Shown one piece after another: positions 1,531-27,859 of a DNA stretch of 64,000 bases (positions are counted from its first letter, which is position 1; the number at the start of each line of letters is the position of its first letter). The position numbers and the translations under genes are program-made. The DNA comes from Desulfatiglandales bacterium (lineage in GTDB: Bacteria; Desulfobacterota; DSM-4660; Desulfatiglandales; Desulfatiglandaceae): the NCBI GenBank assembly GCA_963662465.1, contig OY759599.1, positions 3,328,001 to 3,392,000 of the forward strand. The letters are read 5' to 3'. The notes beneath the pieces were generated by a model. It searched no databases, was not told the DNA's origin, and saw only the letters and a list, made by a program, of their open reading frames with translations.

Positions 1531-3756
1531 GTGCGACGTGATGTCGCGTAAGTAGCTGTTTTGTATATTGATATAAACCATATAACAAAACCCTGTTTTC
1601 TGCAACAGGTATTCTACCGGGACATGCGTCCGGAGTAATCCGGGGGTGTGAAGCTCTCGGGACAATGAAGCCCGCGGAATCTTCCGGGAGAGGGAACCGT
1701 GAGGAGACCTCAACTCTGCAAGCATCATGCGGTAAGGGAGCTAGAATTGAGCAGTATGGTTAACACATGTGAATCGCTGCAGCGTCGTCACGAGAACAAG
1801 CCTAAGATGCTGAAAGGCTTGGACCAAACGGTATGTGGCCAGGTATGGGGGCTGCGAACTCCTCCATCGCGGATGTCGTGCCACCGGCGTACGGGCGGAA
1901 CCTAACCTGCTCGGGTACTTACGCGGAACATGGTAAGCCCGTAATCCTCCCCACGGGGAAAGCGAACCGCAAGGTGAGCCCATGGGGTTGCGGGTAAAGG
2001 ATGTCAGAAAAAAGCAAATGCCCCGTTGTAATGATGGGGATACGGATTGACGGTGTAATCACCTACATGATCCGGCTCGAAAGAGAGCAGACTTCTGACC
2101 GGTGTTCCATTGCGAGATAATTTGTAGAATCTTCAAACAGGGGAAAGCAAATGACGGTGGCCATTTTGGCGACTGGTGCACCTTTGGACGGAACAAACTG
2201 GTGGAAATCCATAAACTGGAGAACCGCCGGCGAGCACGTTAGAAGACTGCAGGTGCGTATCGCAAAGGCTGTGAAGGAAAAGCGATGGGGAAAGGTTAAG
2301 GCAATACAATGGCTTTTGACCCATTCGTTTTATGCCAAGTTGTTGGCCATCAAGCGCGTTACTTCCAACCGAGGTAAACGCACGCCGGGAGTGGATAAAG
2401 TTATATGGTCCACCCACATTGACAAAATGCAGGCGGCAAAAGACCTGCACCGAAGAACTTACCGACCCAAACCGCTGCGCCGAATTTACATACCCAAGAA
2501 AAACGGCAAGAAACGCCCATTGGGCATTCCCACCATGAAAGACAGAGCCATGCAGGCGTTGCACAAACTGGCCCTTGATCCGGTGGCGGAAACCACCGCC
2601 GATCCGAACTCTTATGGGTTCAGAGCCTATCGAGGATGTGCGGATGCCATCGGTCATTGTTTTATTTCTCTGGCCAAGAGCTACTCACCCGCATGGATTT
2701 TGGAGGGAGACATAAAGGCCTGTTTTGACGAAATCAGCCATCAATGGATGCTCGAAAATATCCCCATGGATAAACGGACGCTTCAGAAATGGCTGAAATC
2801 CGGTTATGTGGAAGGAGGCAAGCTCTATCCGACTTACAGAGGAACCCCGCAAGGCGGGATTATCTCTCCAACATTGGCTAATATGGTCCTGGATGGTCTG
2901 GAAGCGGCAGCCAAAAGTACCGCCCCGATAAGAATCCAGGGCAATATACGGTCCAAGATAAACGTAATCCGTTACGCTGATGATTTCATCATCACCGGGA
3001 ATTCCAGAGAGATGCTAAATGAGATCAAGCTGGAAATTGAAGCATTTATGGAGCGAAGAGGACTTTCGCTTTCAGCGGAAAAGACGTTGATCACAAGGAT
3101 AGAAGAAGGATTTGATTTTCTCGGACAGAATCCACGCAAATACCAGGGGAAGCTCTTGATAAAGCCCTCTCGTAAAAACGTGAAAGCCTTCTTAGGCAAT
3201 ATCCGGCAAACGATCCGAAAGCATGCGGCATCAAGAGCCGACACCCTGATTAAAGTGCTCAATCCCAAAATCAGGGGATGGGCCAATTACCACAGGCATG
3301 TGGTTTCCGGTAGAACTTTCGGGCTTGTAGATCACCGTATCTACAGCTATATTTGGCAATGGATGAGGAGGAAACATTCGGGCAAGAGTAAGAGTTGGCT
3401 GGTGGATAAATACTGGTCAAAAGGATCTCGTCCGTGGTCCTTTTCAGCGGTGATCAAGGACGGCTATGCGAAATCCGCTAGAATTGAACTTGAGAAAGCT
3501 TACGACGTCAAGATAAAACGCCATGTCAAAATTCGAGGGGATGCGAACCCCTTCGATCCGAAATATGAACACTATTTCAGGAAACGATATGCCCAACGCA
3601 GTCAGCAGAAGGCAGACAGGCGTAAAGAGCATAAAACGTCACAACCGGGTAGCCCCGAAAGGGCTTGCCTTTGGAATGCTTGAGCCGTGTGCGTTTAACG
3701 GCGCACGCACGGTTCTTAGAGGGCTGGGGGATGGCAACATCCCCTGGCTACTCGAC
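1531..3756 (+). mobile_element. Group II intron family A copy 1 (CL1-like/IIB), intact
   Basis: 5' GTGCG; domain V GAGCCGTGTGCGTTTAACGGCGCACGCACGGTTC; domain VI ending CTACTCGAC; RT ORF in domain IV. Confidence 0.93.
2151..3683 (+). CDS. ltrA: Group II intron reverse transcriptase/maturase, no HNH endonuclease domain
   Basis: RVT_N-type N-terminus (VRRLQVRIAKA), RPLGIP, PQGG, YADD, domain X LNPKIRGWANY. Confidence 0.95.
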   Translation: MTVAILATGAPLDGTNWWKSINWRTAGEHVRRLQVRIAKAVKEKRWGKVKAIQWLLTHSFYAKLLAIKRVTSNRGKRTPGVDKVIWSTHIDKMQAAKDLHRRTYRPKPLRRIYIPKKNGKKRPLGIPTMKDRAMQALHKLALDPVAETTADPNSYGFRAYRGCADAIGHCFISLAKSYSPAWILEGDIKACFDEISHQWMLENIPMDKRTLQKWLKSGYVEGGKLYPTYRGTPQGGIISPTLANMVLDGLEAAAKSTAPIRIQGNIRSKINVIRYADDFIITGNSREMLNEIKLEIEAFMERRGLSLSAEKTLITRIEEGFDFLGQNPRKYQGKLLIKPSRKNVKAFLGNIRQTIRKHAASRADTLIKVLNPKIRGWANYHRHVVSGRTFGLVDHRIYSYIWQWMRRKHSGKSKSWLVDKYWSKGSRPWSFSAVIKDGYAKSARIELEKAYDVKIKRHVKIRGDANPFDPKYEHYFRKRYAQRSQQKADRRKEHKTSQPGSPERACLWNA

Positions 3757-5981
3757 GTGCGACGTGATGTCGCGTAAGTAGCTGTTTTGTATATCAATAT
3801 AAACCATATAACAAAACCCTGTTTTCTGCAACAGGTATTCTACCGGGACATGCGTCCGGAGTAATCCGGGGGTGTGAAGCTCTCGGGACAATGAAGCCCG
3901 CGGAATTTTCCGGGAGAGGAAACCGTGAGGGGACCTCAACTCTGCAAGCATCATGCGGTAAGGGAGCTAGAATTGAGCAGTACGGTTAACACATGTGAAT
4001 CGCTGCAGCGTCGTCACGAGAACAAGCCTAAGATGCTGAAAGGCTTGGACCAAAAGGTACGTGGCCAGGAACGGAGGCTGCGAACTCCTCCGTCGCGGAT
4101 GTTGTGCCACCGGCGTAAAGGCGGAACCTAACCTGCTCTGGTACTTACGCGGAACATGGTAAGCCCGTAATCCTCCCCACGGGGAAAGCGAACCGCAAGG
4201 TGAGCCCATGGGGTTGCGGGTAAAGGATGTCAGAAAAAGCGAATGCCTCGTTGTAATGATGGGGATACGGATTGAAGGTGTAACTACCTACATGATCCGG
4301 CTCGAAAGAGAGCAGACTTCTGACCGGTGTTCCATTGCGAGATAATCTGTCGAATCTTTAAACAGGGGAAAGCAAATGACGGTGGCCGTTTTGGCGACTG
4401 GTGCACCTTTGGACGGAACAAACTGGTGGAAATCCATAAACTGGAAAACCGTCGGCGAGCACGTTAGAAGACTGCAGGTGCGTATCGCAAAGGCTGTGAA
4501 GGAAAAGCGATGGGGAAAAGTCAAGGTGATACAGTGGCTTTTGACTCATTCGTTTTATGCCAAGTTGTTGGCTATCAAGCGCGTTACTTCCAACCGGGGT
4601 AAACGCACACCGGGAGTGGATAAAGTCATATGGTCCACCCACATTGACAAAATGCAGGCGGTAAACGACCTGCGCCGAAGAGCCTACCGACCCAAACCGC
4701 TGCGCCGAATTTACATACCCAAGAAAAACGGCAAGAAACGCCCATTGGGCATTCCCACAATGAAGGACAGAGCCATGCAGGCGTTGTACAAATTGGCGCT
4801 TGATCCGGTGGCGGAAACCACCGCCGATCCGAACTCTTACGGGTTCAGACCCTATCGGGGATGTGCGGATGCCATCGGTCAGTGTTTTATTTCTCTGGCC
4901 AAGCGCCACTCACCCGTATGGATTCTGGAGGGAGATATAAAGGCCTGTTTTGATGAAATCAGCCATCAATGGATGCTCGAAAATATCCCTATGGATAAAC
5001 GGACGCTTCAGAAATGGCTGAAATCCGGTTATGTGGAAGGAGGCAAGCTCTATCCAACTTACAGAGGAACCCCGCAAGGCGGGATTATCTCTCCAACATT
5101 GGCTAATATGGTCCTGGATGGTCTGGAAGCGGCAGCCAAAAGTACCGCCCCGATAAGAATCCAGGGCAATATACGGTCCAAGATAAACGTAATCCGTTAC
5201 GCTGATGATTTCATCATCACCGGGAATTCCAGAGAGATGCTAAATGAGATCAAGCTGGAAATTGAAGCATTTATGGAGCGAAGAGGACTTTCGCTTTCAG
5301 CGGAAAAGACGTTGATCACAAGGATAGAAGAAGGATTTGATTTTCTCGGACAGAATCCACGCAAATACCAGGGGAAGCTCTTGATAAAGCCCTCTCGCAA
5401 AAACGTGAAAGCCTTTTTAGGCAATATCCGGCAAACAATCCGAAAGCATGCGGCATCAAGAGCCGACATTCTGATTAAAGTACTCAATCCCAAAATCAGG
5501 GGGTGGGCCAATTACCACAGGCATGTGGTTTCCGGTAGAACTTTCGGGCTTGTAGATCACCGTATCTACAGCTATATTTGGCAATGGATGAGGAGGAAAC
5601 ATTCGGGCAAGAGTAAGAGTTGGCTGGTGGATAAATACTGGTCAAAAGGATCTCGCCCGTGGTCCTTTTCAGCGGTGATCAAGGACGGCTATGCGAAATC
5701 CGCCAGAATTGAACTTGAGAAAGCTTACGACGTCAAGATAAAACGCCATGTCAAAATTCGAGGGGATGCGAACCCCTTCGATCCGAAATATGAACAATAT
5801 TTCAGGAAACGATATGCCCAACGCAGTCAGCAGAAGGCAGACAGGCGTAAAGAGCATAAAACGTCACAACCGGGTAGCCCCGAAAGGGCTTGCCTTTGGA
5901 ATGCTTGAGCCGTGTGCGTTTAACGGCGCACGCACGGTTCTTAGAGGGCTGGGGGATGGTGACATCCCCTGGCTACTCGAC
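3757..5981 (+). mobile_element. Group II intron family A copy 2, intact, abutting copy 1
   Basis: Junction CTCGAC|GTGCGAC at 3756/3757; same domain structure as copy 1. Confidence 0.93.
4376..5908 (+). CDS. ltrA: Group II intron reverse transcriptase/maturase
   Basis: 510 aa, close paralog of 2151-3683, YADD intact. Confidence 0.95.
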   Translation: MTVAVLATGAPLDGTNWWKSINWKTVGEHVRRLQVRIAKAVKEKRWGKVKVIQWLLTHSFYAKLLAIKRVTSNRGKRTPGVDKVIWSTHIDKMQAVNDLRRRAYRPKPLRRIYIPKKNGKKRPLGIPTMKDRAMQALYKLALDPVAETTADPNSYGFRPYRGCADAIGQCFISLAKRHSPVWILEGDIKACFDEISHQWMLENIPMDKRTLQKWLKSGYVEGGKLYPTYRGTPQGGIISPTLANMVLDGLEAAAKSTAPIRIQGNIRSKINVIRYADDFIITGNSREMLNEIKLEIEAFMERRGLSLSAEKTLITRIEEGFDFLGQNPRKYQGKLLIKPSRKNVKAFLGNIRQTIRKHAASRADILIKVLNPKIRGWANYHRHVVSGRTFGLVDHRIYSYIWQWMRRKHSGKSKSWLVDKYWSKGSRPWSFSAVIKDGYAKSARIELEKAYDVKIKRHVKIRGDANPFDPKYEQYFRKRYAQRSQQKADRRKEHKTSQPGSPERACLWNA

Positions 5982-6806: not shown

Positions 6807-6840
6807 CGGAGACATCATCAGGCATATACGGAGGTTAAAT

Positions 6841-9049: not shown

Positions 9050-9134
9050 GGTTAACCAAACGCTGCACCAGACGCCTGATACTTGGGCGGTTCCGGCGGG
9101 GGCAGGTGGAGGCGCTGGTGAGCTTGTCGTTGGC
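9050..9134 (+). other. attC site
   Basis: GGTTAAC-caaac-GCTGCACCAGACGCC...GGCGCTGGTGAGC-ttgtc-GTTGGC. Confidence 0.9.
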
Positions 9135-12937: not shown

Positions 12938-13178
12938 AACGATAATAAACATGAGCATATTCAAAAAGGCACTTGAATGGCGAGACGTTTGGTAAAGGGA
13001 TAAATAACGCGATATTTCAGGGTTTTTGACGGATCATGCAATTGAAAGCAGGAATTTTATCATCCTTAACCGGCCATGACGGGTTAAAAAAAGGTCACGC
13101 GACAGCTGAGAAGCTCCCTCAATCTCCATAGCCGATCTCCTGCTTCCGGCAAAGTATGTGCTGATGACCCGCAGCTCT

Positions 13179-13309
13179 GTCCAACACCCCGTTGAACTGG
13201 AAAACTGGTATTGGGAGATAAACCGAAATGCGTTGGTTCCTACGAAGTCACCAGCTGGAATGATAATATATTTTTTTGAACCCGTTTTCCAGTTAACTAA
13301 ACGATGGTT
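13179..13309 (+). other. attC site of IS91-like cassette, R' reads GAT
   Basis: GTCCAAC-acccc-GTTGAACTGGAAAAC...GTTTTCCAGTTAAC-taaac-GATGGTT. Confidence 0.75.
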
Positions 13310-14126: not shown

Positions 14127-14732
14127 AGAAAGGCCGGGCTTGCTAATTTGGCCGATCAGGTGCGCCAATGCTAAGTTCAGGTTTTCGCACTGGGGTAGCT
14201 TTGGCGTGGATTATCCGGTTCTATGCCTTTGTTACGTCTGTATGCGTAGGGATTCGAATGTACAAAGGAATAAGTCGTCATGTTTTATGAAAGTGAGGCC
14301 TAATTACTCCGTGATCCCGTGTAGTTAAAAACTTCGAGATCGGTTATGGGGATAGGGAGGAGCCTCACAGCTCCCCCCTCCCACACCACCGTACATACGG
14401 GTCCGTATACGGCGATTCGGCTGGTCAGAGCAGGCAAGGATAAAACAGGTTCCGCCCTACCGGGTTTTCCAGAATGCGACGTTATCGACCTTTCAGCTAC
14501 TGCTGCATTAGACCAATAAGTACACGTTCTTTGACAACCACAACCATTTACCCCTGCCATTCGGCAGGTGGCACCGTTCGGGCCTTCACCGGAGTGAGGC
14601 CTCCCTTTATTCAGGGCTCGTTTCTCCGGCTTAATATGCCCTCTGCTGACTCCCGTTACGCGGTGGGCTCCCCTTTCGGTTCGCTCACTCGTAGTTTCCG
14701 CAATCTGTCGAGTCCATTTGTTTGTGTTTCCC

Positions 14733-16738
14733 CGCATAAGTCTAAATGTTGTGGGGTTGTATAACCCATCAAAATTAAAAGGCGTTTTCGGTAAACAAGA
14801 ATGCATTATGAACCTTCATAACTTGAATCCAAGGTAAGTCAAATGTTTGGCCGTTGGCTAATTCAAAGGGACTTTTATGAGCATTTTTTGCGCCAGGTAA
14901 AAATGGGACAAAATTCCTGATAGTCGCATGTGCTCGAAAGAAAAGACTTGCCCATTTCTTATCTCGAAAACTCTCAATTTGTTTTAGTTTACGTTTGATT
15001 CCTTTTAAATAATTGTCAACAATGGAGGTTGTTTGTTTTATCCCATTTCTATTTTTATGAGAGGTATAATGAGTGGCATTTTCTTTTAATTCTACTACCC
15101 TCTTTTTTAGTAATGGATGAGAAAATGCATCGTCATCTAATGCCTTAATCTTTACTTCCAAGTTAACTTTAGATGTGGATGTTTTCAAAACTTTCTTAAA
15201 TTTTTTATAAAGCTTGTCCACTTCTTGGTCGGTACATTTTGATTCTTTTTGATATTTTGATAGTGCATCGTAGAAGTTTTTCAAACAATGACGATGGCAA
15301 TATCCGACCCAAATGTTATGGAATACGGTCTTGATAGCATTGGTTGAGGCTTTCCACTTATCTTTTGTTACACCAAGGATTTTGAAGTCGATTTTTTGCA
15401 AAAAATCCTCAAATGAACCGCACAGGTTTTCTTCATCAACATGATCAACATAATCGGAGTGCCATACTAATAAATTTTCAGGATCGACCATAACTACAGA
15501 ATAAGTTCTTAAATTTGGTTCTTTTTCAAAGCCCTCATCTTCCTGTAGATATCCTGAGCCTTTCACTCCTGCTCTTGTTAGTATTGTTGCAGGATGAAGT
15601 GTTCCTGCCCATCGATTCCAGTTCAAGATGGTCTGTTTGCTTTTGACACTTTTTTTGCCAATAATTTTAAGGCTTTCGATGGCTCCTTGAATGCTCGCAT
15701 TAAAACGGTACATATTCCGAAATACGTGCCCAATAATCTCTATACCAAAATTCTTTTCCCTTGGGAGAAAGCTGGGAACAAGAGAGAACTTTTGTTTGCA
15801 CTTCCGGCATTGTATCATGCGGATTGGGAATGTCTGTTGTTCTCCTCCATTCATTATTGTTTTTCGAGGATTCCCGCGGAAACCAGATAAAATATATTCT
15901 TTAGGTCCAGAACATGTTGAATTATGGCCTGTGTGGTGATCATATTTATCGAGTTTATCTAATACTTCAATGCGAAACTTCTTACTATCTTTTACGAGAG
16001 CATGATAGCTTTCGGTGTTATTATAAGGAAAGATATATGTTTGATTTCCTCGTTTAGAAACAAGGTCTTCCATTTTCTTTTTTACATTTTCGATTATGGA
16101 TTTATCAAAAGATTTTAACATCCCTATCTCAAATGCAATACTGATTGTACTATCACGACTTTTTACATTATTCAATTTTTTAGTAATATTACTTATCATT
16201 GAACGAATTGAATAAAAGATTCTAATTTTCTGTCGATCCCGTTGTGTTTTTGGAATGCTTTTTTTCCCTTTTATTGGCTTACAAATATCCCATAATTGAC
16301 TTATTAACCTACCAAGTTCATCAATAAGAGCAGACAATGTTACATAAAAATATTGCAATGATTGAAACATCTCCCTTTCATTGATCCATGATCTGATGGC
16401 ATTAATGCATTTCTCAATTTCAAAGAAAATCTCAGGATACTGTTTTGGATCGTAATAACATTGTCTTGCAAGTCTGTTTTGAGCTTTGTCCAACATTGTC
16501 AAAGCTCTCTTAATATTATTAATCATGTGCAACCTCTCTAATTTAACATAGACTGTTGCACTATGATTATGCACACTTATCAAAAAAAGTCCCTAACTTT
16601 TTTCCGCTAAGGCGAATTCAGGAAAAAATGTTTGGCCTCACGAAATGCGCTTTGATTAGGATATTGATTCTGAACCGTTTAACAGATGAAATAATTTCAA
16701 TATGTTAGAGTAAACCCCACAACATTTAGACTTATGCG
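14733..16738 (-). mobile_element. Insertion sequence, IS256/ISH6 (Mutator-like) superfamily
   Basis: Perfect 26-bp TIR CGCATAAGTCTAAATGTTGTGGGGTT; 8-bp TSD TGTTTCCC (14725-14732, 16739-16746); empty site visible in intron copy 24351-25176. Confidence 0.9.
14775..16583 (-). CDS. Putative transposase (602 aa)
   Basis: Only long ORF between the TIRs; QEDEG, TKD, CHRH (CxxH) and TTSIVDN motifs; start codon uncertain. Confidence 0.8.
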   Translation of the reverse strand: MISVHNHSATVYVKLERLHMINNIKRALTMLDKAQNRLARQCYYDPKQYPEIFFEIEKCINAIRSWINEREMFQSLQYFYVTLSALIDELGRLISQLWDICKPIKGKKSIPKTQRDRQKIRIFYSIRSMISNITKKLNNVKSRDSTISIAFEIGMLKSFDKSIIENVKKKMEDLVSKRGNQTYIFPYNNTESYHALVKDSKKFRIEVLDKLDKYDHHTGHNSTCSGPKEYILSGFRGNPRKTIMNGGEQQTFPIRMIQCRKCKQKFSLVPSFLPREKNFGIEIIGHVFRNMYRFNASIQGAIESLKIIGKKSVKSKQTILNWNRWAGTLHPATILTRAGVKGSGYLQEDEGFEKEPNLRTYSVVMVDPENLLVWHSDYVDHVDEENLCGSFEDFLQKIDFKILGVTKDKWKASTNAIKTVFHNIWVGYCHRHCLKNFYDALSKYQKESKCTDQEVDKLYKKFKKVLKTSTSKVNLEVKIKALDDDAFSHPLLKKRVVELKENATHYTSHKNRNGIKQTTSIVDNYLKGIKRKLKQIESFRDKKWASLFFRAHATIRNFVPFLPGAKNAHKSPFELANGQTFDLPWIQVMKVHNAFLFTENAF

Positions 16739-17186
16739 TGTTTCCCGACCAATAGGCCGGGCTCGTCAGGGCTATGACTCGAAATGTTCCTGACGCCAGG
16801 GTTTTGTTTTACCGGTTTTCCCTTATATTCCGGTAGATTTCAGTTGCAGTTCCCTACGAGACGCAACGGGCCTCCCGGGGTAAACACGTGTCTTTCCGCA
16901 CACGAGCGCCGACAACGTGCCTGGCCTATAGTAGTTAGAGGACTTTGTTCTGTGTTGCGGACTCGTCCCACCAGACCCGCCTCACTCGATTTCTGTTCGT
17001 CGCCCCGTGCGTTTGCGGTGCCCTGCCGCAGCAAGGCCACTGCCTCTCCAGGCCCGTTACCGGGTACCCGGTTGTGATACCGCTACACCCTTCGCCACTA
17101 CCTGGCTGGGTCTGGGACTTGCGTAAAATATCGGAAGCATGGTACATTGCGCGCACCCTTAAGAACACGTGCCGTGCCCGGCACAC

Positions 17187-17270
17187 AACCAAACGCTCCA
17201 CCAGACGCCTGACAGTCCTGCGGTCCTGGCAGGGGCCGAAGGAGGAGGCGCTGGTGAGCTTGTCGTTGGC
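17187..17270 (+). other. attC site flanked by introns at both ends
   Basis: (GGTT 14342-14345)|AAC-caaac-GCTCCACCAGACGCC...GGCGCTGGTGAGC-ttgtc-GTTGGC. Confidence 0.9.
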
Positions 17271-17903
17271 ATGCGACGTGATGTCGCGTAAGTAGCTGTT
17301 TTATATATTGATATAAACCATATAACAAAACCCTGTTTTCTGCAACAGGCATTCTACCGGGACATGCGTCCGGAGTAATCCGGGGGTGTGAAGCTCTCGG
17401 GACAATGAAGCCCGCGGAATTTTCCGGAAGAGGGAACCGTGAGGGGACCTCAACTCTGCAAGCATCATGCGGTGAGGGAGCTAGAATTGAGCAGTACGGT
17501 TAACACATGTGAATCGCTGCAGCGTCGTCACGAGAACAAGCCTAAGATGCTGAAAGGCTTGGACCAAAAGGTACGTGGCCAGGAACGGAGGCTGCGAACT
17601 CCTCCGTCGCAGATGTCGTGCCACCGGCGTAGGGGCGGAACCTAACCTGCTCGGGTACTTACGCGGAACATGGTAAGCCCGTAACCCTCCCCACGGGGAA
17701 AGCGAACCGCAAGGTGAGCCCATGGGGTTGCGGGTAAAGGATGTCAGAAAAAGCGAATGCCTCGTTGTAATGATGGGGATACGGATTGATGGTAATCACC
17801 GACATGATCCGGCTCGAAAGAGAGCAGACTTCTGACCGGTGTTCCATTGCGAGATAATCTGTAGAATCTTCAAACAGGGGAAAGCAGCCAGTGAAACGGG
17901 CGA

Positions 17904-19761
17904 ATGACGGTGGCCGTTTTGGCGACTGGTGCACCTTTGGACGGAACAAACTGGTGGAAATCCATAAACTGGAAAACCGCCGGGGAGCATGTTAGAAGAC
18001 TGCAGGTGCGTATCGCAAAGGCTGTGAAGGAAAAGCGATGGGGAAAAGTCAAGGTGATACAGTGGCTTTTGACTCATTCGTTTTATGCCAAGTTGTTGGC
18101 TATCAAGCGCGTTACTTCCAACCGGGGTAAACGCACACCGGGAGTGGATAAAGTCATATGGTCCACCCACATTGACAAAATGCAAGCGGTAAACGACCTG
18201 CGCCGAAGAGCCTACCGACCCAAACCGCTGCGCCGAATTTACATACCCAAGAAAAACGGCAAGAAACGCCCATTGGGCATTCCCACAATGAAGGACAGAG
18301 CCATGCAGGCATTGTACAAATTGGCGCTTGATCCGGTGGCGGAAACCACCGCCGATCCGAACTCTTACGGGTTCAGACCCTATCGGGGATGTGCGGATGC
18401 CATCGGTCAGTGTTTTATTTCTCTGGCCAAGCGCTACTCACCCGTATCGATTCTGGAGGGAGATATAAAGGCCTGTTTTGATGAAATCAGCCATCAATGG
18501 ATGCTCGAAAATATCCCGATGGATAAACGGACGCTTCAGAAATGGCTGAAAGCCGGGTATGTAGAAGGAGGCAAGCTCTATCCGACATACAGAGGAACCC
18601 CGCAAAGCGGGTTATGCAAAGCTTTGCATAACCCGCCTTATGCAAAGAAAGTAATTATGCAAAGTAAACCGTAAAAGCCATAATAATTCAAGAGATTCTT
18701 GTTGATTTGCTTAGCATAATCTCCACTTATGGTGAATGAGAAAAAGTTCAAAAAATCATTAGACAAAACAAAGGAGCTATTTTTATCCAAAACAAACGAA
18801 GAATGCTGCATCATTTACTTGGCTTTCAAGTCTGAAGTAGTCGTGATATTATGCAAAGTAAATTCAGTGCATATGCTTGAAATATTGCACCTTAACTGAT
18901 TTACTTTGCATAATCGTTAACTTTGCATAAGGCGGGATTATCTCTCCAACATTGGCTAATATGGTCCTGGATGGTCTGGAAGCGGCAGCCAAAAGCACCG
19001 CCCCGATAAGAATTCAGGGAAATATACGATCCAAAATAAACGTAATCCGCTACGCTGATGATTTTATCATCACCGGGAATTCCAGAGAGATGCTAAATGA
19101 GATCAAGCTGGAAATTGAAGCATTTATGGAGCGAAGAGGTCTTTCGCTTTCAGCGGAAAAGACGTTGATCACAAGGATAGAAGAAGGATTTGATTTTCTC
19201 GGACAAAGTTCACGCAAATACGGAGGAAAACTTTTGATAAAGCCCTCTCGCAAAAACGTGAAAGCCTTTTTAGGCAATATCCGGAAAACAATCCGAAAGC
19301 ATGCGGCATCAAGAGCCGACATTCTGATTAAAGTACTCAATCCCAAAATCAGGGGGTGGGCCAATTACCACAGGCATGTGGTTTCCGGTAGAACTTTCGG
19401 GCTTGTAGATCACCGTATCTACAGCTATATTTGGCAATGGATGAGGAGGAAACATTCGGGCAAGAGTAAGAGTTGGCTGGTGGATAAATACTGGTCAAAA
19501 GGATCTCGCCCGTGGTCCTTTTCAGCGGTGATCAAGGACGGCTATGCGAAATCCGCCAGAATTGAACTTGAGAAGGCTTACGACGTCAAGATAAAACGCC
19601 ATGTCAAAATTCGAGGGGATGCGAACCCCTTCGATCCGAAATATGAACAATATTTCAGGAAACGATATGCCCAACGCAGTCAGCAGAAGGCAGACAGGCG
19701 TAAAGAGCATAAAACGTCACAACCGGGTAGCCCCGAAAGGGCTTGCCTTTGGAATGCTTGA
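17904..19761 (+). pseudogene. ltrA: Intron RT split by insertion
   Basis: Halves 17904-18674 and 18952-19761. Confidence 0.92.
18612..18930. mobile_element. Miniature non-coding element, variant 2 (body inverted relative to variant 1)
   Basis: AGCGGG|palindrome|CCCGCC|body|GGCGGG. Confidence 0.88.
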
Positions 19762-19979
19762 GCCGTGTGCGTTTAACGGCGCACGCACGGTTCTTAGAGG
19801 GCTGGGGGATGGCAACATCCCCTGGCTACTCGACTTGATGAGCTTCTGCAAAGGAGAAGGAAGATGTTAAGCGTGTATTTGCCGGTAATTGGAAACATCA
19901 ATAAGAGGCCTCGTATCTCGGACTTCGCTTCAGCGCGTTAGCCACTTGAAAATCAGCCTGTAAAGGAGAATGCTTAGCT

Positions 19980-20225
19980 ATGCCAGTAGTCTTCAGGTAC
20001 AAGGGATATCGTTTTTTCTTTTTCTCAAATGAAGGAGATCCACCTGAACCGATTCACATACATGTGCGACGTGGTGAGGCTACAGCAAAGTTCTGGATGT
20101 CACCTCAGATCAGCCTTGCGGAATCATACAATATGAACTCTTCTGAACTCCGCGAACTCATGCGAGTGGCTGAAAAAAACAGGAAACTCATTGAAAGGTA
20201 TTGGGATGAACACTTTAGCATTTAA
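19980..20225 (+). CDS. DUF4160-family protein (TA-like)
   Basis: MPVVFRYKGYRFFFFSNE..EPIHIHV..AKFW. Confidence 0.85.
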   Translation: MPVVFRYKGYRFFFFSNEGDPPEPIHIHVRRGEATAKFWMSPQISLAESYNMNSSELRELMRVAEKNRKLIERYWDEHFSI

Positions 20226-20475
20226 ACCACGTGCCAAAAAAGTGACTTTTGACTCGGACAACATGTGGGTAGCACTCACCGATGGACGTCAGCTCGGTGT
20301 TCCTATTGCTTACTTCCCACGACTCCTCAATGCAACTGAAGCTCAAAGAGATGATTACATCATCAGCGGCGGAGGTAGTGGCCTGCATTGGGAGGAACTC
20401 GACGAGGACATTTCTGTTAAAGGCCTTTTATTGGGAATTGGTGATAGGACTCGACCTGACAGAAAGGCGGCATGA
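20206..20475 (+). CDS. DUF2442-family protein (TA-like partner)
   Basis: LTDGRQLGVPIAYFPRL..GLHWEELDEDISV. Confidence 0.85.
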   Translation: MNTLAFKPRAKKVTFDSDNMWVALTDGRQLGVPIAYFPRLLNATEAQRDDYIISGGGSGLHWEELDEDISVKGLLLGIGDRTRPDRKAA

Positions 20476-20494
20476 CTGCTTTCAGCCACTTCCT

Positions 20495-20624
20495 TGCTAA
20501 CAGTAACTACAGCAGACAGTCAGAGCGCTGGCGTAGTTGGCAGATAAGCGTGATTCGAAATTGAAATTGATCTTTTTATTCCAAGATGCGCGAGCACTGG
20601 TCGTTGCTCAATATGGCGTTAATC
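20495..20624 (+). other. attC site (degenerate)
   Basis: R'' TGCTAAC nearly complements the upstream R' GTTAGCC (19937-19943); imperfect arms; R' GTTAATC. Confidence 0.6.
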
Positions 20625-20869
20625 GCAACCCGTCATTAGCATTTTTGAAGGGGAAAGAAACTGTTCAGCGCTCATTCGCCGATAACGGGGATAACGAATA
20701 AGGAAGAAGATCATTTTTTAAAGGCGAGTTGTGCAATGTCCATTTATTTCTATCATATTCCGCTGAATGTGCCAATAGCCATCGAATGTGAAAAAAATAA
20801 GTGATATGCTTATAGCTAGGTCCAAGCTTTTTTGTCATATAATTCCGTGGGGTTAAGAAAATCTATGAG

Positions 20870-20954
20870 CGCCAACCAAACGCTCCAGCGGACCCCTGAA
20901 AGTCTGTCGGTTCTAGCGGGGACCGGTGGAGGGGCCGCTGAACTTGTCGTTCGC
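20870..20954 (+). other. attC site
   Basis: CGCCAAC-caaac-GCTCCAGCGGACCCC...GGGGCCGCTGAAC-ttgtc-GTTCGC. Confidence 0.88.
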
Positions 20955-21587
20955 GTGCGACGTGATGTCGCGTAAGTAGCTGTTTTATATATTGATATAA
21001 ACCATACAACAAAACCCTGTTTTCTGCAACAGGTATTCTACCGGGACATGCGTCCGGAGTAATCCGGGGGTGTGAAGCTCTCGGGACAATGAAGCCCGCG
21101 GAATTTTCCGGAAGAGGGAACCGTGAGGGGACCTCAACTCTGCAAGCATCATGCGGTGAGGGAGCTAGAATTGAGCAGTACGGTTAACACATGTGAATCG
21201 CTGCAGCGTCGTCACGAGAACAAGCCTAAGATGCTGAAAGGCTTGGACCAAAAGGTACGTGGCCAGGAACGGAGGCTGCGAACTCCTCCGTCGCAGATGT
21301 CGTGCCACCGGCGTAGGGGCGGAACCTAACCTGCTCGGGTACTTACGCGGAACATGGTAAGCCCGTAATCCTCCCCACGGGGAAAGCGAACCGCAAGGTG
21401 AGCCCATGGGGTTGCGGGTAGAGGATGTCAGAAAAAGCGAATGCTCCGTTGTAATGATGGGGATACGGATTGATGGTAATCACCGACATGATCCGGCTCG
21501 AAAGAGAGCAGACTTCTGACCGGTGTTCCATTGCGAGATAATCTGTAGAATCTTCAAACAGGGGAAAGCAGCCAGTGAAACGGGCGA

Positions 21588-23445
21588 ATGACGGTGGCCG
21601 TTCTGGCGACTGGTGCACCTTTGGACGGAACAAACTGGTGGAAATCCATAAACTGGAAAACCGCCGGGGAGCATGTTAGAAGACTGCAGGTGCGTATCGC
21701 AAAGGCTGTGAAGGAAAAGCGATGGGGAAAAGTCAAGGTGATACAGTGGCTTTTGACTCATTCGTTTTATGCCAAGTTGTTGGCTATCAAGCGCGTTACT
21801 TCCAACCGGGGTAAACGCACACCGGGAGTGGATAAAGTCATATGGTCCACCCACATTGACAAAATGCAAACGGTAAACGACCTGCGCCGAAGAGCCTACC
21901 GACCCAAACCGCTGCGCCGAATTTACATACCCAAGAAAAACGGCAAGAAACGCCCATTGGGCATTCCCACAATGAAGGACAGAGCCATGCAGGCATTGTA
22001 CAAATTGGCGCTTGATCCGGTAGCGGAAACCACCGCCGATCCGAACTCTTACGGGTTCAGACCCTATCGGGGATGTGCGGATGCCATCGGTCAGTGTTTT
22101 ATTTCTCTGGCCAAGCGCTACTCACCCGTATGGATTCTGGAGGGAGATATAAAGGCCTGTTTTGATGAAATCAGCCATCAATGGATGCTCGAAAATATCC
22201 CGATGGATAAACGGACGCTTCAGAAATGGCTGAAAGCCGGGTATGTAGAAGGAGGCAAGCTCTATCCGACATACAGAGGAACCCCGCAAGGCGGGTTATG
22301 CAAAGCTTTGCATAACCCGCCTTATGCAAAGAAAGTAATTATGCAAAGTAAACCGTAAAAGCCATAATAATTCAAGAGATTCTTGTTGATTTGCTTAGCA
22401 TAATCTCCACTTATGGTGAATGAGAAAAAGTTCAAAAAATCATTAGACAAAACAAAGGAGCTATTTTTATCCAAAACAAACGAAGAATGCTGCATCATTT
22501 ACTTGGCTTTCAAGTCTGAAGTAGTCGTGATATTATGCAAAGTAAATTCAGTGCATATGCTTGAAATATTGCACCTTAACTGATTTACTTTGCATAATCG
22601 TTAACTTTGCATAAGGCGGGATTATCTCTCCAACATTGGCTAATATGGTCCTGGATGGTCTGGAAGCGGCAGCCAAAAGCACCGCCCCGATAAGAATTCA
22701 GGGAAATATACGGTCCAAGATAAACGTAATCCGCTACGCTGATGATTTTATCATCACCGGGAATTCCAGAGAGATGCTAAATGAGATCAAGCTGGAAATT
22801 GAAGCATTTATGGAGCGAAGAGGTCTTTCGCTTTCAGCGGAAAAGACGTTGATCACAAGGATAGAAGAAGGATTTGATTTTCTCGGACAAAGTTCACGCA
22901 AATACGGAGGAAAACTTTTGATAAAGCCCTCTCGCAAAAACGTGAAAGCCTTTTTAGGCAATATCCGGAAAACAATCCGAAAGCATGCGGCATCAAGAGC
23001 CGACATTCTGATTAAAGTACTCAATCCCAAAATCAGGGGGTGGGCCAATTACCACAGGCATGTGGTTTCCGGTAGAACTTTCGGGCTTGTAGATCACCGT
23101 ATCTACAGCTATATTTGGCAATGGATGAGGAGGAAACATTCGGGCAAGAGTAAGAGTTGGCTGGTGGATAAATACTGGTCAAAAGGATCTCGCCCGTGGT
23201 CCTTTTCAGCGGTGATCAAGGACGGCTATGCGAAATCCGCCAGAATTGAACTTGAGAAGGCTTACGACGTCAAGATAAAACGCCATGTCAAAATTCGAGG
23301 GGATGCGAACCCCTTCGATCCGAAATATGAACAATATTTCAGGAAACGATATGCCCAACGCAGTCAGCAGAAGGCAGACAGGCGTAAAGAGCATAAAACG
23401 TCACAACCGGGTAGCCCCGAAAGGGCTTGCCTTTGGAATGCTTGA
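21588..23445 (+). pseudogene. ltrA: Intron RT split by insertion
   Basis: Halves 21588-22358 and 22636-23445. Confidence 0.92.
22296..22614. mobile_element. Miniature non-coding element, variant 2
   Basis: GGCGGG|TTATGCAAAGCTTTGCATAA|CCCGCC|body|GGCGGG. Confidence 0.88.
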
Positions 23446-23607
23446 GCCGTGTGCGTTTAACGGCGCACGCACGGTTCTTAGAGGGCTGGGGGATGGTGAC
23501 ATCCCCGGCTACTCGACCCAGAATATTGGCTACAACTGGATCGCAGTGGCGACCAAATAAGTACACAGTGAAGTGTATAAAGATCCATATCCGAGGGCCG
23601 AAAATAG

Positions 23608-23988
23608 ATGGTAAATATTGACAAACATATTTTGTATTGGAAAAGCGGCGCAGAAGAAGATTTTCAAGTGGCAGATCAGCTTATCAGGTCCGGCAAAACC
23701 CGTCACGGACTTTTCTTTCTTCATCTAACACTTGAGAAAATTCTCAAAGCCCATGTTTGCCGCAACAGTAGGGATATCGCTCCAAGACTACACAATCTTG
23801 CAAGACTTTCAGAATTGACTGGAATTGTCTTCAAACAGGAAGATTCGGATTTTCTTGCAGAAATGAATCCGTTCAACATTGAGGGACGTTATCCCGAAAT
23901 GTGGGGACCTGTTCCGTCCCGCGAGGAAGCGGACACGCTACTGCTAAAATCAGGAGGGATATTCGAATGGCTCAAGAATCAATTATAA
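23608..23988 (+). CDS. HEPN domain protein
   Basis: FFLHLTLEKILKA, PRLHNL, EGRYP. Confidence 0.88.
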   Translation: MVNIDKHILYWKSGAEEDFQVADQLIRSGKTRHGLFFLHLTLEKILKAHVCRNSRDIAPRLHNLARLSELTGIVFKQEDSDFLAEMNPFNIEGRYPEMWGPVPSREEADTLLLKSGGIFEWLKNQL

Positions 23989-24290
23989 AATCAATCAGGA
24001 AATATCTGAACGAACTTCAACGGCTTGGCGTCCCAATCAAATTCGGCATTTTGTTCGGTTCACACGCTCGCAAAGACACAAACAAATGGAGTGACATAGA
24101 TTTGTTAGTAGTGTCACCTCGATATGATGAATCTTACAACCGAGAAGATATCAATATGCTTTGGCGGACCGCAGCCCGCACAGACAACCGGATAGAACCC
24201 GTCCCCGTAGGTCTTCACCGGTGGGAAACGGACGACGAAAGTACAATCATCGAAGCAGCACGACGCGAGGGAATACTGGTAAACGCATAA
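23967..24290 (+). CDS. Minimal nucleotidyltransferase (MNT) antitoxin
   Basis: LFGSHAR...SDIDLLVVS. Confidence 0.88.
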   Translation: MAQESIIKSIRKYLNELQRLGVPIKFGILFGSHARKDTNKWSDIDLLVVSPRYDESYNREDINMLWRTAARTDNRIEPVPVGLHRWETDDESTIIEAARREGILVNA

Positions 24291-24350
24291 GATATGACAA
24301 AAAACCACATGCTATTGAAAATAAGCATCCAAACTTACCCTATAGCGGTT

Positions 24351-25176
24351 ATAGGGATAGGGAGGAGCCTCACAGCTCCCCCCTCCCACCACCGTACATA
24401 CGGGTCCGTATACGGCGATTCGGCTGGTCAGAGCAGGCAAGGATAAAACAGGTTCCGCCCTACCGGGTTTTCCAGAATGCGACGTTATCGACCTTTCAGC
24501 TACTGCTGCATTAGACCAATAAGTACACGTTCTTTGACAACCACAACCATTTACCCCTGCCATTCGGCAGGTGGCACCGTTCGGGCCTTCACCGGAGTGA
24601 GGCCTCCCTTTATTCAGGGCTCGTTTCTCCGGCTTAATATGCCCTCTGCTGACTCCCGTTACGCGGTGGGCTCCCCTTTCGGTTCGCTCACTCGTAGTTT
24701 CCGCAATCTGTCGAGTCCATTTGTTTGTGTTTCCCGACCAATAGGCCGGGCTCGTCAGGGCTATGACTCGAAATGTTCCTGACGCCAGGGTTTTGTTTTA
24801 CCGGTTTTCCCTTATATTCCGGTAGATTTCAGTTGCAGTTCCCTACGAGACGCAACGGGCCTCCCGGGGTAAACACGTGTCTTTCCGCACACGAGCGCCG
24901 ACAACGTGCCTGGCCTATAGTAGTTAGAGGACTTTGTTCTGTGTTGCGGACTCGTCCCACCAGACCCGCCTCACTCGATTTCTGTTCGTCGCCCCGTGCG
25001 TTCGCGGTACCCTGCCGAAGCAAGGTCACTGCCTTCCCAGGCACCGTTACCGAATACCCGGTTGTGATACCGCTACACCCTTCGCCACTACCTGGCTGGG
25101 TCTGGGACTTGCGTAACATATCGGAAGCATGATATATTACGCGCACCCTTAAGAACACGTGCCGTGCCCGGCACAC
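24351..25176 (-). mobile_element. ORF-less group IIC-attC intron copy 2
   Basis: 826-nt uninterrupted copy; splits R'' GGTT|AAC. Confidence 0.88.
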
Positions 25177-25257
25177 AACCAAACGCTCCACCAGACGCCT
25201 GATAGTCCGGCGGTTCCGGCGAGGGCTGGCAGAGGCGCTGGTGAGCTTACCGTTGGC
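25177..25257 (+). other. attC site flanked by introns at both ends
   Basis: AAC-caaac-GCTCCACCAGACGCC...GGCGCTGGTGAGC-ttacc-GTTGGC. Confidence 0.9.
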
Positions 25258-26082
25258 TTGCGACACGGAGTCGCATAGTTTAAGTGTATTCATGTAGTTA
25301 CATGTATTACCCGGTATGTCCCTACCGGACCCTACGCAGGCATGCTGCCGTTGCGCTGATGACGGGGTGTGAAGCCCTGCGGACAACGTACCGAATTGGG
25401 TTTGAATGGCGACAGGAGAACCCCTCCGGGAATCCTCCCCGGTTAAGGGCCAGGGTCAGATGATATGGTGAAGGTATCTGAATGTCTTTAAGCGTCGATC
25501 ACAAGCGAAGGGCCTACGAGGATTAACAGGTCTTATGCCGCTGCCCAGTGTCAGCGGATGTGGTCAGGTTGCAGGTCTGCTAACTGCCTGCACGGAACTG
25601 TTGTACCACCGGCGTAGAGGGCGCACCTAAGTCATCCATTGGATCAACTATGTGGAACGTGGAAACCCGGTCCCGCCGCCCCTTTTGGGGGCAGGCTAAC
25701 CGTAAGGCATGCTGTTGGCGGGCCGGAGTAGGAGGCTGAAAAAAGCGAATGCCGGGCTGTAATGGTCCGGATACCGGGTGAAACATTCCCGGCTCCGTAA
25801 GGAGGCAAACGTTCAGCGTGGTGCCCGATCACGTGAACACCGGAGGAATCAGATGAAAGCGGGGAAAGCAGCCAGTGAAACGGGCGAATGACGGCCCTTG
25901 AGGCTGGTGCGCCCCGCGCGCCTTTGGCTACTCTGACAGCCGGCTTGTAACGTGAAGTAGATGCAAATCCGCGGGAATCCCAACCAGGGAAACCTTTTCG
26001 GGGGCTTGAGCCACGTGAGGTGAAAGTCTCATGCGTGGTTCTGAGGGGGGAATGGGACTGAGAGGTCCCTGACCTACCCGAT
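25258..26082 (+). mobile_element. ORF-less group II intron family B copy 2
   Basis: 5' TTGCG, domain V as in copy 1, ends CTACCCGAT. Confidence 0.88.
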
Positions 26083-26143
26083 CAGACCCGCTGGACAGCG
26101 GGGGAACTAACGTCGTAACTCCCAGTAAATAAAGGAGGTTTCA

Positions 26144-27319
26144 GTGGAAGCGACGATTCAGAGCATCTTTCTTATAGGCTATGCCCTCTATGATCAGACC
26201 CATCTTCTTCCGGAACATATTCGTGAAGCGGCACACCGTCTGATGAGTTGCCGCACATCTGCTCTGGGGGGTCACGTGCAGGCGTGCCCGGACGGTCACT
26301 TCAAAAGGCACTGGTACAACTCGTGTAAACATCGCATGTGCCCCCTCTGCGCTTTTACCCAGGTGAAACGTTGGCTGGCAAAACAAAAGGCTCGCATCTT
26401 AAACACCGAACATTTCCATGTTATTTTCACCATCTCCGATGAATTGCACGACTTATGGCGGTTGAACCGCAAGCTTATGGGCAATCTGCTGTTCAAAAGC
26501 GCCACTGAAACCCTTTCCGAACTCCTTGGAGATCCGAAGCATTTGGGGGGCAAAGTCGGCATCATCGCCTCACTGCATACCTGGAGCCGAAAACTGGACT
26601 TTCATCCGCATCTGCATTGTCTGGTAACGGCCGGTGGGCTGATCGCCGGCGAGTGGATCGCTTCATCAAAAAAATTCCTTTTGCCCTTTGGCATCGTCCG
26701 GGCGGTATTTCGAGGCAAGTACCTCTACTATTTGAGAAAAGCCCTGGATCGGAACGAACTGGTTCTGCCCGAGGGCATGGGGCCTCAGCAGGCCCGGAAC
26801 CTCTTCAATAAACTGGGCCGCCGCAAAAAATGGAACGTCAAGCTCAAAGAGACCTATTCATACGGTGAAGGCGTGTTGATTTACCTGGCGCGTTACTTGA
26901 GAGGCGGAGCAATTTCAAACAAACGCATCTACAGCATTGAAAACGGGAACGTGACCTTCAATTACGGTCGTGAGAAGGTAAAACTCATCTCCCTGCCGAT
27001 TCAAACCTTTATCAGCCGCTATCTGCAACACGTCCCCCTAGCAAATACCGTGATGGTGCGTTCATACGAACTCTATCATCACAGCTCAAAAGAAGAACTG
27101 GCACTCTGCCGGGAAATACTGGGTCAACCGCCTCTTGAAGATACGGAATTTCTGGATTGGCAGACCTTGTGGCAACAGCGAAGCGATGAGCAACCGGACC
27201 GTTGCCCTGTTTGTGGGAAGTGCCTCATAACTCTGGAAATATTGACGCCGGTCAAAAAGTTAAGAGAGCTTCCGAGGTTCAATAAAGTCCATGACATGAT
27301 ACATGCCCAAGCAGCATAG
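26144..27319 (+). CDS. IS91-family (Y2 HUH) transposase
   Basis: RBS AAGGAGG; same motifs as, and clearly paralogous to, 11762-12937. Confidence 0.9.
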   Translation: MEATIQSIFLIGYALYDQTHLLPEHIREAAHRLMSCRTSALGGHVQACPDGHFKRHWYNSCKHRMCPLCAFTQVKRWLAKQKARILNTEHFHVIFTISDELHDLWRLNRKLMGNLLFKSATETLSELLGDPKHLGGKVGIIASLHTWSRKLDFHPHLHCLVTAGGLIAGEWIASSKKFLLPFGIVRAVFRGKYLYYLRKALDRNELVLPEGMGPQQARNLFNKLGRRKKWNVKLKETYSYGEGVLIYLARYLRGGAISNKRIYSIENGNVTFNYGREKVKLISLPIQTFISRYLQHVPLANTVMVRSYELYHHSSKEELALCREILGQPPLEDTEFLDWQTLWQQRSDEQPDRCPVCGKCLITLEILTPVKKLRELPRFNKVHDMIHAQAA

Positions 27320-27342
27320 ATTAAGCATGCGCAGTCGAAAGG

Positions 27343-27446
27343 CAGGGCAAATTTGTTCTATTTGTAAACCTTTGATATCAAAACCTTATGAAGGACACAT
27401 CAATTCAAACAAATCAATGGATTAGCGTTAGAACAAATTCACCGTG
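27343..27446. mobile_element. 104-bp MITE
   Basis: Imperfect 18-bp TIR CAGGGCAAATTTGTTCTA / TAGAACAAATTCACCGTG; 10-bp TSD AGTCGAAAGG. Confidence 0.8.
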
Positions 27447-27859
27447 AGTCGAAAGGTCTTTAGTCGAGTGAAAGGTTTTTGATGTCGAGGTGTTTGGTAA
27501 ACTGCCTAATAACACGATATTTTGGCATTTTTAGCGGGACCATGCGATCAAAAAAAGAAATTTTATCATTTTTAACTGGCTTAGACCGGAATGATGGGTC
27601 AAAAAGAAGTCATGCGGTAGCTGCAAAGATCGTTTAATCTCCATAGCGGCGATCCTGCTCCCATTAACCTATGTGCGTGTGACTCGCGGGTCTGTCCAAC
27701 CAGCCGTTGAACGAAGCTTCGCAAACGCCAAAGCGGTAAAAAGTTTAGTGCTAACAAACCAGTTAAGTTGTTGCGGTTATTGGCATTATGTTGCTAAATC
27801 CAAAAAAAACAGCGGAAAGCAATCTCTAACAGCAAGTAGTGTGCCAAAACGACAACCAT

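What the first reader, a model, noticed from the sequence alone, without database searches (positions are those of the whole stretch)
14342..26082. Single attC sites occupied at both ends by back-to-back introns of different classes
Seen twice (attC 17187-17270 and 25177-25257). An ORF-less IIC intron on the minus strand splits R'' GGTT|AAC; its EBS1 loop AACC (top-strand GGTT 17070-17073 and 25060-25063) pairs with the bottom-strand exon GGTT. A CL1-like intron follows R' on the plus strand. Removing the IIC intron restores CGGTTAACCAAACGCT, identical to the uninterrupted R'' at 9049. Both AAC and GTT triplets survive. Inference: two intron classes share one recombination site, and no IIC RT is in the window, so it must act in trans.
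Basis: partly seen in the sequence, partly recalled or inferred. Interest (0 to 1): 0.75.

Follow-up and report, generated by a model that had tools for sequence, protein, structure and literature searches.

The report
Two introns sharing one integron site
Two kinds of self-splicing jumping genes have landed back to back on opposite ends of the same integron recombination site without destroying it, most likely as independent colonists of two separate niches rather than as partners.

Summary
Real, but mostly a by-product. Both attC sites carry a class C intron on the bottom strand at R'' (GTT|R) and a CL1/IIB intron on the top strand at R' (GTTNNN|). AAC, GTT and the L box survive. An exact IIC-less allele occurs in one public run.

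The first IIC holds a 2-kb IS. The integrase crossover lies between the introns, so they ride different cassettes. The only cognate IIC RT in this genome is frameshifted; a same-genus genome has it intact.

Genome-wide, 4 of 55 main-family attC sites are double, against 2.0-2.7 expected from independent insertion (P 0.08-0.23). Doubles recur in a same-genus genome (3 sites) and in metagenomes (6 sites). A 2010 table already lists a IIC-attC intron with a divergent second intron, unanalysed.

New: a IIC-attC variant shifted one base, which spares AAC, and the division of attC into two intron niches. This scan reported IIB homing to R' earlier elsewhere in this genome.

The parts
14346..17186 (-). 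IIC-1: class C (IIC-attC type) intron without RT, inserted GTT|A in the bottom strand of R''; interrupted by an IS
   Evidence: GTGTG start, AT end; RF02001 16884-17066, RF00029 14346-14417; 812/828 identical to IIC-2 once the IS is set aside
14733..16738 (-). 2006-bp insertion sequence inside IIC-1: 26-bp terminal inverted repeats, 8-bp duplication TGTTTCCC (14725-14732, 16739-16746), 602-aa ORF 14775-16583
   Evidence: 20 full-length copies at least 99.7% identical in the genome; only weak family hits, both under cut-off: DUF6431, IS256 transposase
16953..16956 (-). EBS1 of IIC-1 (AACA in loop GCAACACA, intron nt 229-236); pairs 3 of 4 with exon GGTT
   Evidence: hairpin loop of the RF02001 model; covariation with the exon across lineages
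17187..17270 (+). attC site 1: AAC 17187-17189, L''/L' stem, GTT 17265-17267, tail GGC; crossover expected between 17265 and 17266
   Evidence: 70.8 bits against a profile of the genome's main attC family; bottom-strand L box pair probability 0.9; tail complements the R'' of the next attC, 3 of 3
17271..19834 (+). IIB-1: CL1-like intron after GTTGGC; EBS1 GCGAAC 17594-17599, candidate EBS2 ACAAGC 17536-17541; RT in two pieces (17904-18674, 18952-19761)
18612..18936 (.). non-coding inverted-repeat element inserted in the RT gene at the PQG|G motif
20874..20951 (+). attC with a IIB intron only (intron 20955-23517); closes the DUF2442 cassette that begins with IIB-1
23518..24350 (+). HEPN/nucleotidyltransferase cassette, the upstream cassette on which IIC-2 rides
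   Evidence: Pfam; 89% identical twin without IIC at genome about 6763400-6764200
24351..25176 (-). IIC-2: 826-nt ORF-less class C intron, inserted GTT|A; EBS1 AACA at 24942-24945
   Evidence: (fold z -4.2); exact empty allele in run X4
25177..25257 (+). attC site 2: AAC 25177-25179, GTT 25252-25254, tail GGC
   Evidence: 72.9 bits; L box pair probability 0.73; 67/81 identical to site 1
25258..26082 (+). IIB-2: 825-nt ORF-less intron of the same CL1-like group; EBS1 GCTAAC 25579-25584, candidate EBS2 25501-25506
26083..27319 (+). start of the downstream cassette: IS91-type transposase gene
   Evidence: Y2_Tnp and Zn_Tnp_IS91
9054..9134 (+). control: same-family attC with uninterrupted R'' and a IIB intron only (9135-11699)
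2151..5908 (+). two intact 510-aa CL1-like RT genes (2151-3683, 4376-5908) in tandem introns behind the attC at 1451-1527; possible helpers of the IIB copies

Best explanation
Two unrelated retro-mobile intron lineages colonise the same integron arrays independently, each reading a different end and strand of attC. A class C lineage reverse-splices into the bottom strand just 3' of the attC hairpin, using EBS1 AACA on (T/G)GTT and probably EBS3 U on the next purine. This is one base outside the published TTGT|T site, so AAC stays whole. A CL1/IIB lineage reverse-splices into the top strand three bases after GTT, with EBS1 on GTTNNN and probably EBS2 on the L'/spacer. The footprints do not overlap, so either can follow the other. 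The crossover G|TT lies between them: the IIC travels at the 3' end of the upstream cassette, the IIB at the 5' end of the downstream one. A double site arises by two insertions or by integrase joining two single carriers. ORF-less copies were moved by full-length relatives in trans. Shown: anatomy, classes, boundaries, EBS1 covariation, cassette ownership, frequencies. Inferred: EBS2, EBS3, trans action, that double sites still recombine.
For: All 10 IIC 5' ends in the genome abut AAC; 3' exons begin with A (8 of 10) or G (2 of 10). EBS1 loop vs exon: AACA/NGTT here and in G010, G024, G037; ACCA/TGGT in a second G010 lineage; ACAA/TTGT in L029, L060, L063. Of 29 IIB 5' ends, 22 lie exactly 3 nt after GTT, 4 in a shifted register, 3 behind another intron. 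The 3 nt after GTT complement the next attC's R'' at 114 of 123 positions (41 sites without a top-strand intron) and 32 of 42 (14 flagged sites), against 55 of 123 and 23 of 42 for the same site. Doubles: 4 of 55 vs 1.96 expected, P 0.08; wider set of 74 sites, 2.6 expected, P 0.23; within-array shuffling, 2.7 expected, P 0.22. Predicted R and L box pairing at three double sites is not abolished. Four IIB copies sit at attI-like sites that pair with the candidate EBS2 at 2 of 6 or less, as expected if integrase carried them there. Three intact intI reading frames were translated.
Against: Doubles exceed expectation in both genomes (4 of 6 IIC-bearing main-family sites here; 3 of 4 in fetched parts of G010), and numbers are too small to exclude a several-fold enrichment. 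The candidate EBS2 is paired in the energy-minimum folds and differs in other lineages. 27 of 29 IIB copies face the leading-strand template although their RT has no endonuclease domain, so the priming route is unexplained. R box pairing falls from about 0.7 to 0.45 at one of three sites. No splicing, transcription or recombination was observed.
Confidence: 0.72

Rival explanations
1. The pair is a partnership: an outward promoter in the IIC 5' end transcribes attC plus the IIB precursor, and antisense transcription from the IIB side gives the otherwise silent IIC its precursor, so doubles are favoured donors.
For: IIC-attC introns carry active outward promoters, and S.ma.I2 is reported untranscribed in its host (PMC3001079, sections 14 and 17). 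An extended -10-like motif (TGnTAYATT) lies at intron nt 39-47, facing the IIB, in 10 of 10 copies. Doubles are in nominal excess in two genomes. All 6 metagenome doubles have the same CL1-like partner although the pattern asked only for DTGCG.
Against: No significant excess within arrays. The consensus scan found 0 promoter-like sites around site 1 and 1 (0.8 expected) around site 2. The ten copies are 94-99% identical, so the motif's conservation says little. 14 of 18 IIB-bearing and 2 of 6 IIC-bearing main-family sites are single.
Confidence: 0.12
2. Doubles mark dead attC sites: one insertion blocks integrase, the cassette is frozen and collects further elements.
For: Partners are often broken: IS in IIC-1, insertion in the IIB-1 RT, a 199-nt IIB stub at genome 2371487, a IIC remnant at G010 C4 607964. 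Longer cassettes can excise less often (PMC5371416 passages).
Against: AAC, GTT, both spacers and the L box are kept, and predicted folding holds. IIB copies at attI-like sites suggest movement after insertion. Broken copies are also common at single sites.
Confidence: 0.1
3. The doubles are copies of one ancestral composite (IIC-attC-IIB) spread by duplication, or an assembly artefact of repeats.
For: Many near-identical intron copies allow recombination and misassembly; cassette ends match less well across IIB copies (32 of 42) than elsewhere (114 of 123).
Against: The two window attC sites differ (67/81), their IIB partners belong to different subfamilies (377/641 over the first 600 nt) and their IIC copies differ at 16 positions. 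G010 and the metagenome doubles use other attC sequences and a second IIC lineage.
Confidence: 0.04

Closest known systems
Group IIC-attC introns such as S.ma.I2 (PMC3001079: sections 14 and 17 and passages read; PMC7923331: parts 1-4 of 7 read)
   Same: Class C RT, bottom-strand insertion at R'' after the attC hairpin, opposite to cassette transcription.
   Different: Published consensus is TTGT|T, which splits A|AC. This lineage inserts at NGTT|R, has EBS1 AACA, leaves AAC whole, and spreads mainly as an ORF-less form. Quiroga and Centron 2009 and Leon and Roy 2009 were seen only as reference entries and may list other registers.
Shewanella putrefaciens AAWY01000044 entry (PMC3001079 Table 3: 5' exon gene 'Second group II intron', divergent; PMC9229058 passage: a CL1 or class E intron in the S. 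putrefaciens 200 integron)
   Same: Probably the same back-to-back arrangement of a IIC-attC intron and a second intron.
   Different: Only a table entry and one sentence; no junction, spacing or mechanism given. I could not see the sequence or Figure S2, so whether one attC separates them is unverified.
UHB.I2, a IIB1/CL1 intron of a soda-lake metagenome (PMC7923331)
   Same: CL1, no endonuclease, UUGCG start, directly after an attC, cassette orientation.
   Different: A single case without a IIC partner or R' pairing analysis. Here 29 copies place the target inside R'.
Bacterial twintrons and ORF-less introns helped in trans (PMC4424553, passages)
   Same: Repeated homing to one spot; ORF-less copies beside relatives with an RT.
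   Different: The introns here are not nested; they are divergent, on opposite strands, about 80 bp apart.

Membership tests
attC site | RYYYAAC and GTTRRRY core triplets with 5-nt spacers | tested here: met
   AAC-N5-L'' and L'-N5-GTT at both sites; flanks only loosely fit RYYY/RRRY
attC site | bottom-strand hairpin with L box and an extrahelical base | tested here: met
   7 of 7 L box pairs after removing one base; pair probability 0.73-0.9. Whole-site fold z-scores are modest, -1.1 and -1.75
attC site | part of an integrase-built cassette array | tested here: met
   intI 40 kb upstream; cassette ends complement each other
attC site | recombined by IntI with both introns in place | not testable with these tools
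   folding predictions only
group IIC intron | short domain 5 with CGC triad | tested here: met
group IIC intron | class C RT in the cognate element | tested here: met
   best match GsI-IIC, 336 bits vs 107 for 6ME0; element 97% identical to IIC-2 over 629 nt; similarity ranking, no tree
group IIC intron | 3-4 bp EBS1/IBS1 and a DNA hairpin in place of IBS2 | tested here: met
   AACA pairs 4 of 4 at 4 sites and 3 of 4 at 6 sites
IIC-attC lineage | insertion in the attC bottom strand at R'' | tested here: met
   10 of 10 5' ends abut AAC; 9 lie on attC calls, one (443329) on a degenerate hairpin
IIC-attC lineage | consensus site TTGT|T | tested here: not met
   register is NGTT|R in all copies here and in G010, G009, G024, G037
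IIC-attC lineage | RT falls in the monophyletic IIC-attC clade | not tested
   no reference set fetched; plasmid search gave about 60% best identity and was not followed up
CL1/IIB1 intron | CL1-type RT | tested here: met
   6ME0 568 bits vs 144 next; RVT_N, RVT_1, GIIM, no HNH hit; 6ME0 as CL1 is recalled; no tree
CL1/IIB1 intron | AGC triad domain 5 and 6-bp EBS1 in a hairpin loop | tested here: met
CL1/IIB1 intron | EBS2/IBS2 pairing | tested here: inconclusive
   ACAAGC complements GCTTGT at -13 to -8 but is paired in predicted folds
twintron | one intron nested inside another | tested here: not met
   introns are separated by the attC

The most novel reading that the evidence does not exclude
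attC is a divided niche on which three intron lineages have tuned their exon-binding loops to land just outside the bases the integrase needs, so that they hitchhike on cassettes; and back-to-back pairs transcribe each other's precursors, making the double site a self-sustaining two-intron unit that integrase assembles and takes apart.
Probability: 0.12. Interest if true: 0.75.

Novelty: new variant of a known kind. Interest (0 to 1): 0.47.

Why it matters
It gives a natural experiment for two open points. First, how class C introns set their insertion register: two registers with matching EBS1 loops sit side by side in one relative genome. Second, whether introns ride integron cassettes or disable them: both lineages spare the core triplets, and the crossover separates them. 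Many homologous intron copies at both cassette ends also offer the substrate for the proposed intron-assisted cassette formation. The double occupancy itself is expected once two such lineages meet.

Tried and rejected
My first idea that this loop is the alpha loop was dropped as untested.

A plain attC scan was noisy: 303 real vs 163 shuffled hits at 6 pairs and -0.15 kcal/mol/nt. I therefore used a family profile and a hand-picked wider list. In one search one of the 14 flagged sites (5899251) is not an intron, three belong to a third family, 25 of 80 sites had no next attC within 7 kb and were not scored, and 7 pairs are identical IS91 repeats.

Pooling G000 and G010 gave P 0.026. Not relied on: the G010 regions were chosen because they hold introns and the table counted one empty site too many.

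Promoter scans found nothing above chance. The pair pattern in genome contigs gave 8 hits, 1 true (L028, same junction as L015, counted once); that pattern missed introns starting GTACG. In the class, 2 of 209 genomes matched. A IIB-end pattern hit 3 of 401 phylum genomes; the two outside G000 show no IIC upstream, one being cut by a contig end. Plasmid searches with both RTs gave only distant hits and were not followed.

Laid runs were contigs only. The RNA run shows presence of pieces, not splicing or strand. Joints skipping IIB-2 have sides of 21-22 nt and may come from other IS91 copies.

Paper searches listed no study of double occupancy; only the open library was searched. Supplement text of PMC9229058 did not describe the array; its figure S2 could not be seen. 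A word search of earlier scan notes returned nothing.
Full report
Setting. The window is G000:C1:3328001-3392000 of a one-contig 8.16-Mb genome. Its first 28 kb are the end of an integron array. An intI gene lies 40 kb upstream, and five intI matches pass the family cut-off. Cassettes include PIN, DUF2442, HEPN/nucleotidyltransferase and IS91-type genes. Rfam finds seven plus-strand and two minus-strand group II introns in the window.

The observation. Both doubles exist. IIC-1 spans 14346-17186 (-) and IIC-2 24351-25176 (-); each starts GTGTG and ends AT. Removing them gives CGGTTAACCAAACGCT, as at 9049. The spacers score 71 and 73 bits against a profile of the genome's main attC family. Each is followed by GTTGGC and a plus-strand intron (17271-19834, 25258-26082). 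One contig of run X4 skips exactly 24351-25176, with a 24-nt short side.

Classes. The plus-strand RT matches the RT of PDB 6ME0 at 568 bits, against 144 for LtrA and 114 or less for class C; Pfam shows no endonuclease domain. That 6ME0 is a CL1/IIB protein is recalled. The minus-strand family has one RT-bearing copy at genome 443329-445451, closest to GsI-IIC. IIC-2 has a short domain 5 with a CGC triad and folds better than 20 of 20 shuffles. No tree was built.

IIC targeting. All 10 5' ends in the genome abut AAC. The exon ends GGTT (6) or TGTT (4), and the 3' exon starts A (8) or G (2). The published site is TTGT/T (PMC7923331), which splits A|AC; this lineage inserts one base further out. 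The homologous 8-nt loop of the RF02001 model reads GC-AACA-CA in this lineage (G000, G010, G024, G037; exon NGTT), GC-ACCA-CA in a second G010 lineage (exons TGGT, TTGT, GGGT, AGGT; GT|T register) and GC-ACAA-CA/TA in L029, L060 and L063 (exon TTGT). A second position changes from A to U along with the 3' exon base (T to purine); I infer it is EBS3. Restored R'' bases complement the start of their own cassette 3 of 3 at 294151, 2371411 and 6765345; at 3221162 and at window site 2 they match 1 of 3, where an attC seems to be missing in between. All 10 copies face the lagging-strand template by GC skew, as expected for endonuclease-less introns.

The helper. Six full-size ORF-less copies share one replaced domain 4 and differ at 10-53 of about 828 positions, so the ORF-less form itself spread. 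The cognate RT gene is frameshifted in its maturase part; G010 holds an intact copy (L032). Two other RT families in the genome are only about 40% identical to it. Trans action is inferred and probably lies in the past.

IIB targeting. Of 29 5' ends, 22 lie exactly three bases after GTT, four in a shifted register and three behind another intron. EBS1 loops end in AAC and pair with GTTNNN; at the two window sites they pair 5 of 6 and 6 of 6 (one G-U). They are mostly unpaired in folds. A conserved ACAAGC complements GCTTGT at -13 to -8, the L'/spacer of the main attC family, but folds do not expose it, so EBS2 is unconfirmed. Four copies sit at attI-like sites without that match. Five intact 510-aa RT genes remain. 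27 of 29 copies face the leading-strand template, an unexplained priming problem. Earlier scan notes reported this R' homing elsewhere in the genome; I had noted it before looking.

Who owns what. The three bases after GTT complement the next attC's R'' far better than the same site's: 114 vs 55 of 123 positions at 41 sites without a top-strand intron, and 32 vs 23 of 42 at 14 flagged sites (caveats under Tried and rejected). This fits the crossover at G|TT (established knowledge, recalled; cassette boundaries at GTTRRRY in PMC3053210, passages). So the IIC belongs to the upstream cassette and the IIB to the downstream one. At site 1 the tail GGC matches the attC at 20874 3 of 3. Folding three double sites with and without introns gave L box probabilities of 0.62-0.95 throughout. 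R box pairing rose with both introns at the two window sites (0.05 to 0.44, 0.01 to 0.14) and fell at the third (0.7 to 0.45). These are predictions only.

Is the pairing special? Among 55 main-family sites, 18 carry a CL1 intron, 6 a IIC and 4 both (294151, 2371411, 3345187, 3353177). Expected: 1.96 (P 0.08); 2.6 in a wider set of 74 (P 0.23); 2.7 when shuffled within arrays (P 0.22). A moderate excess cannot be excluded. The window's two doubles are independent: different attC, different IIB subfamilies, different cassettes.

Elsewhere. G010 has three doubles in the regions fetched: one with this IIC lineage, two with the canonical-register lineage, one of these a remnant. The pair pattern matched 2 of 209 genomes of the class. 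In metagenome contigs 8 of 13 hits are doubles, at 6 distinct sites: L063/L072, L069 and L064 with Rfam hits on both sides, L061 and L071 with the IIC cut by the contig end, L062/L066 by end sequences only. L065 is ambiguous, three are IIC only, one is spurious. All six use canonical-register IICs and the same CL1-like partner. No denominator exists for these.

Literature. IIC-attC introns and their outward promoters are known (PMC3001079). Its Table 3 lists, for S. putrefaciens, a divergent 'second group II intron' next to a IIC-attC intron, and PMC9229058 mentions a CL1 or class E intron in that species' integron. A CL1 intron directly after an attC was reported once (PMC7923331). So the arrangement has probably been seen, but six searches of the open library listed no analysis of it. 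[quoted passage not shown]

Verdict. A real and recurring arrangement, best explained by independent homing of two classes to opposite ends of attC (0.72). The new parts are the AAC-sparing IIC register with its matching EBS1 and the split of the site across the crossover. New variant of a known kind; interest 0.47.

Noticed in passing
window 10476-10806, 18612-18936, 22296-22620; genome 292476, 2365510 (partial), 3215916, 4989421, 6842523: A roughly 320-bp non-coding element with TTATGCAAAG/CTTTGCATAA ends; all 8 copies found lie in group II RT genes, the 7 whole ones at the PQG|G motif, in two RT families and with the inner segment in either orientation. It looks like a site-specific parasite of RT genes; no autonomous partner was sought beyond the end motif.
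   Followed up: partly
genome 3214479-3217006, 6743339-6745478, 6785904-6788043: A third intron family (504-aa reading frame, 5' end GCGCC) also sits at GTTNNN| of attC in cassette orientation; class not tested.
   Followed up: partly
window 1531-6806: Three introns in tandem behind one attC (two with intact RT, one ORF-less); their EBS1 fits the attC end, not the preceding intron, so later arrivals probably pushed earlier ones downstream.
   Followed up: partly
window 11700-13305 and 26083 onward; genome 3288828, 4412355-4425223, 6790914-6792511: IS91-type transposase genes built as cassettes with their own attC, next to intI at three integrons, eight times in tandem at one. Intron-free copies start GTTGGA; the two intron-bearing copies start GTTGGC.
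   Followed up: partly
L032 (G010:C7:87583-89697): The intact RT-bearing IIC is inserted at GTT| in the opposite strand of sequence resembling domain 1 of the ORF-less IIB intron, not in an attC.
   Followed up: no
G010, L039, L054-L057: A second ORF-less IIC-attC lineage (5' end GTACG, canonical GT|T register) with at least 7 5' ends in the fetched regions.
   Followed up: partly
genome 2371487, 3306436, 4983328, 5886487: IIB 5' junctions shifted by -5 to +1 bases; at 2371487 the intron's own TT completes the GTT core, so it starts at the crossover point. First intron bases vary (G, A, T).
   Followed up: no
genome 296438, 3205567, 3745852, 4412354, 5899305; L029: Several intron-free cassettes begin GTTNNN-GTGC, like an intron 5' end at the exact IIB position; possibly scars.
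   Followed up: no
genome 453892-7118062, 12 intact reading frames: Another RT family whose introns follow a repeated CCCACGCAGAGCGTGGGAAC hairpin, not attC.
   Followed up: no
window 7308-7330: A run of about 23 G breaks a methyltransferase-like gene (6781-7963); variable tract or assembly error.
   Followed up: no
window 27212 region, about 105 bp (27342-27447): A short repeat with about 14 copies genome-wide interrupts the end of the second IS91 cassette.
   Followed up: no
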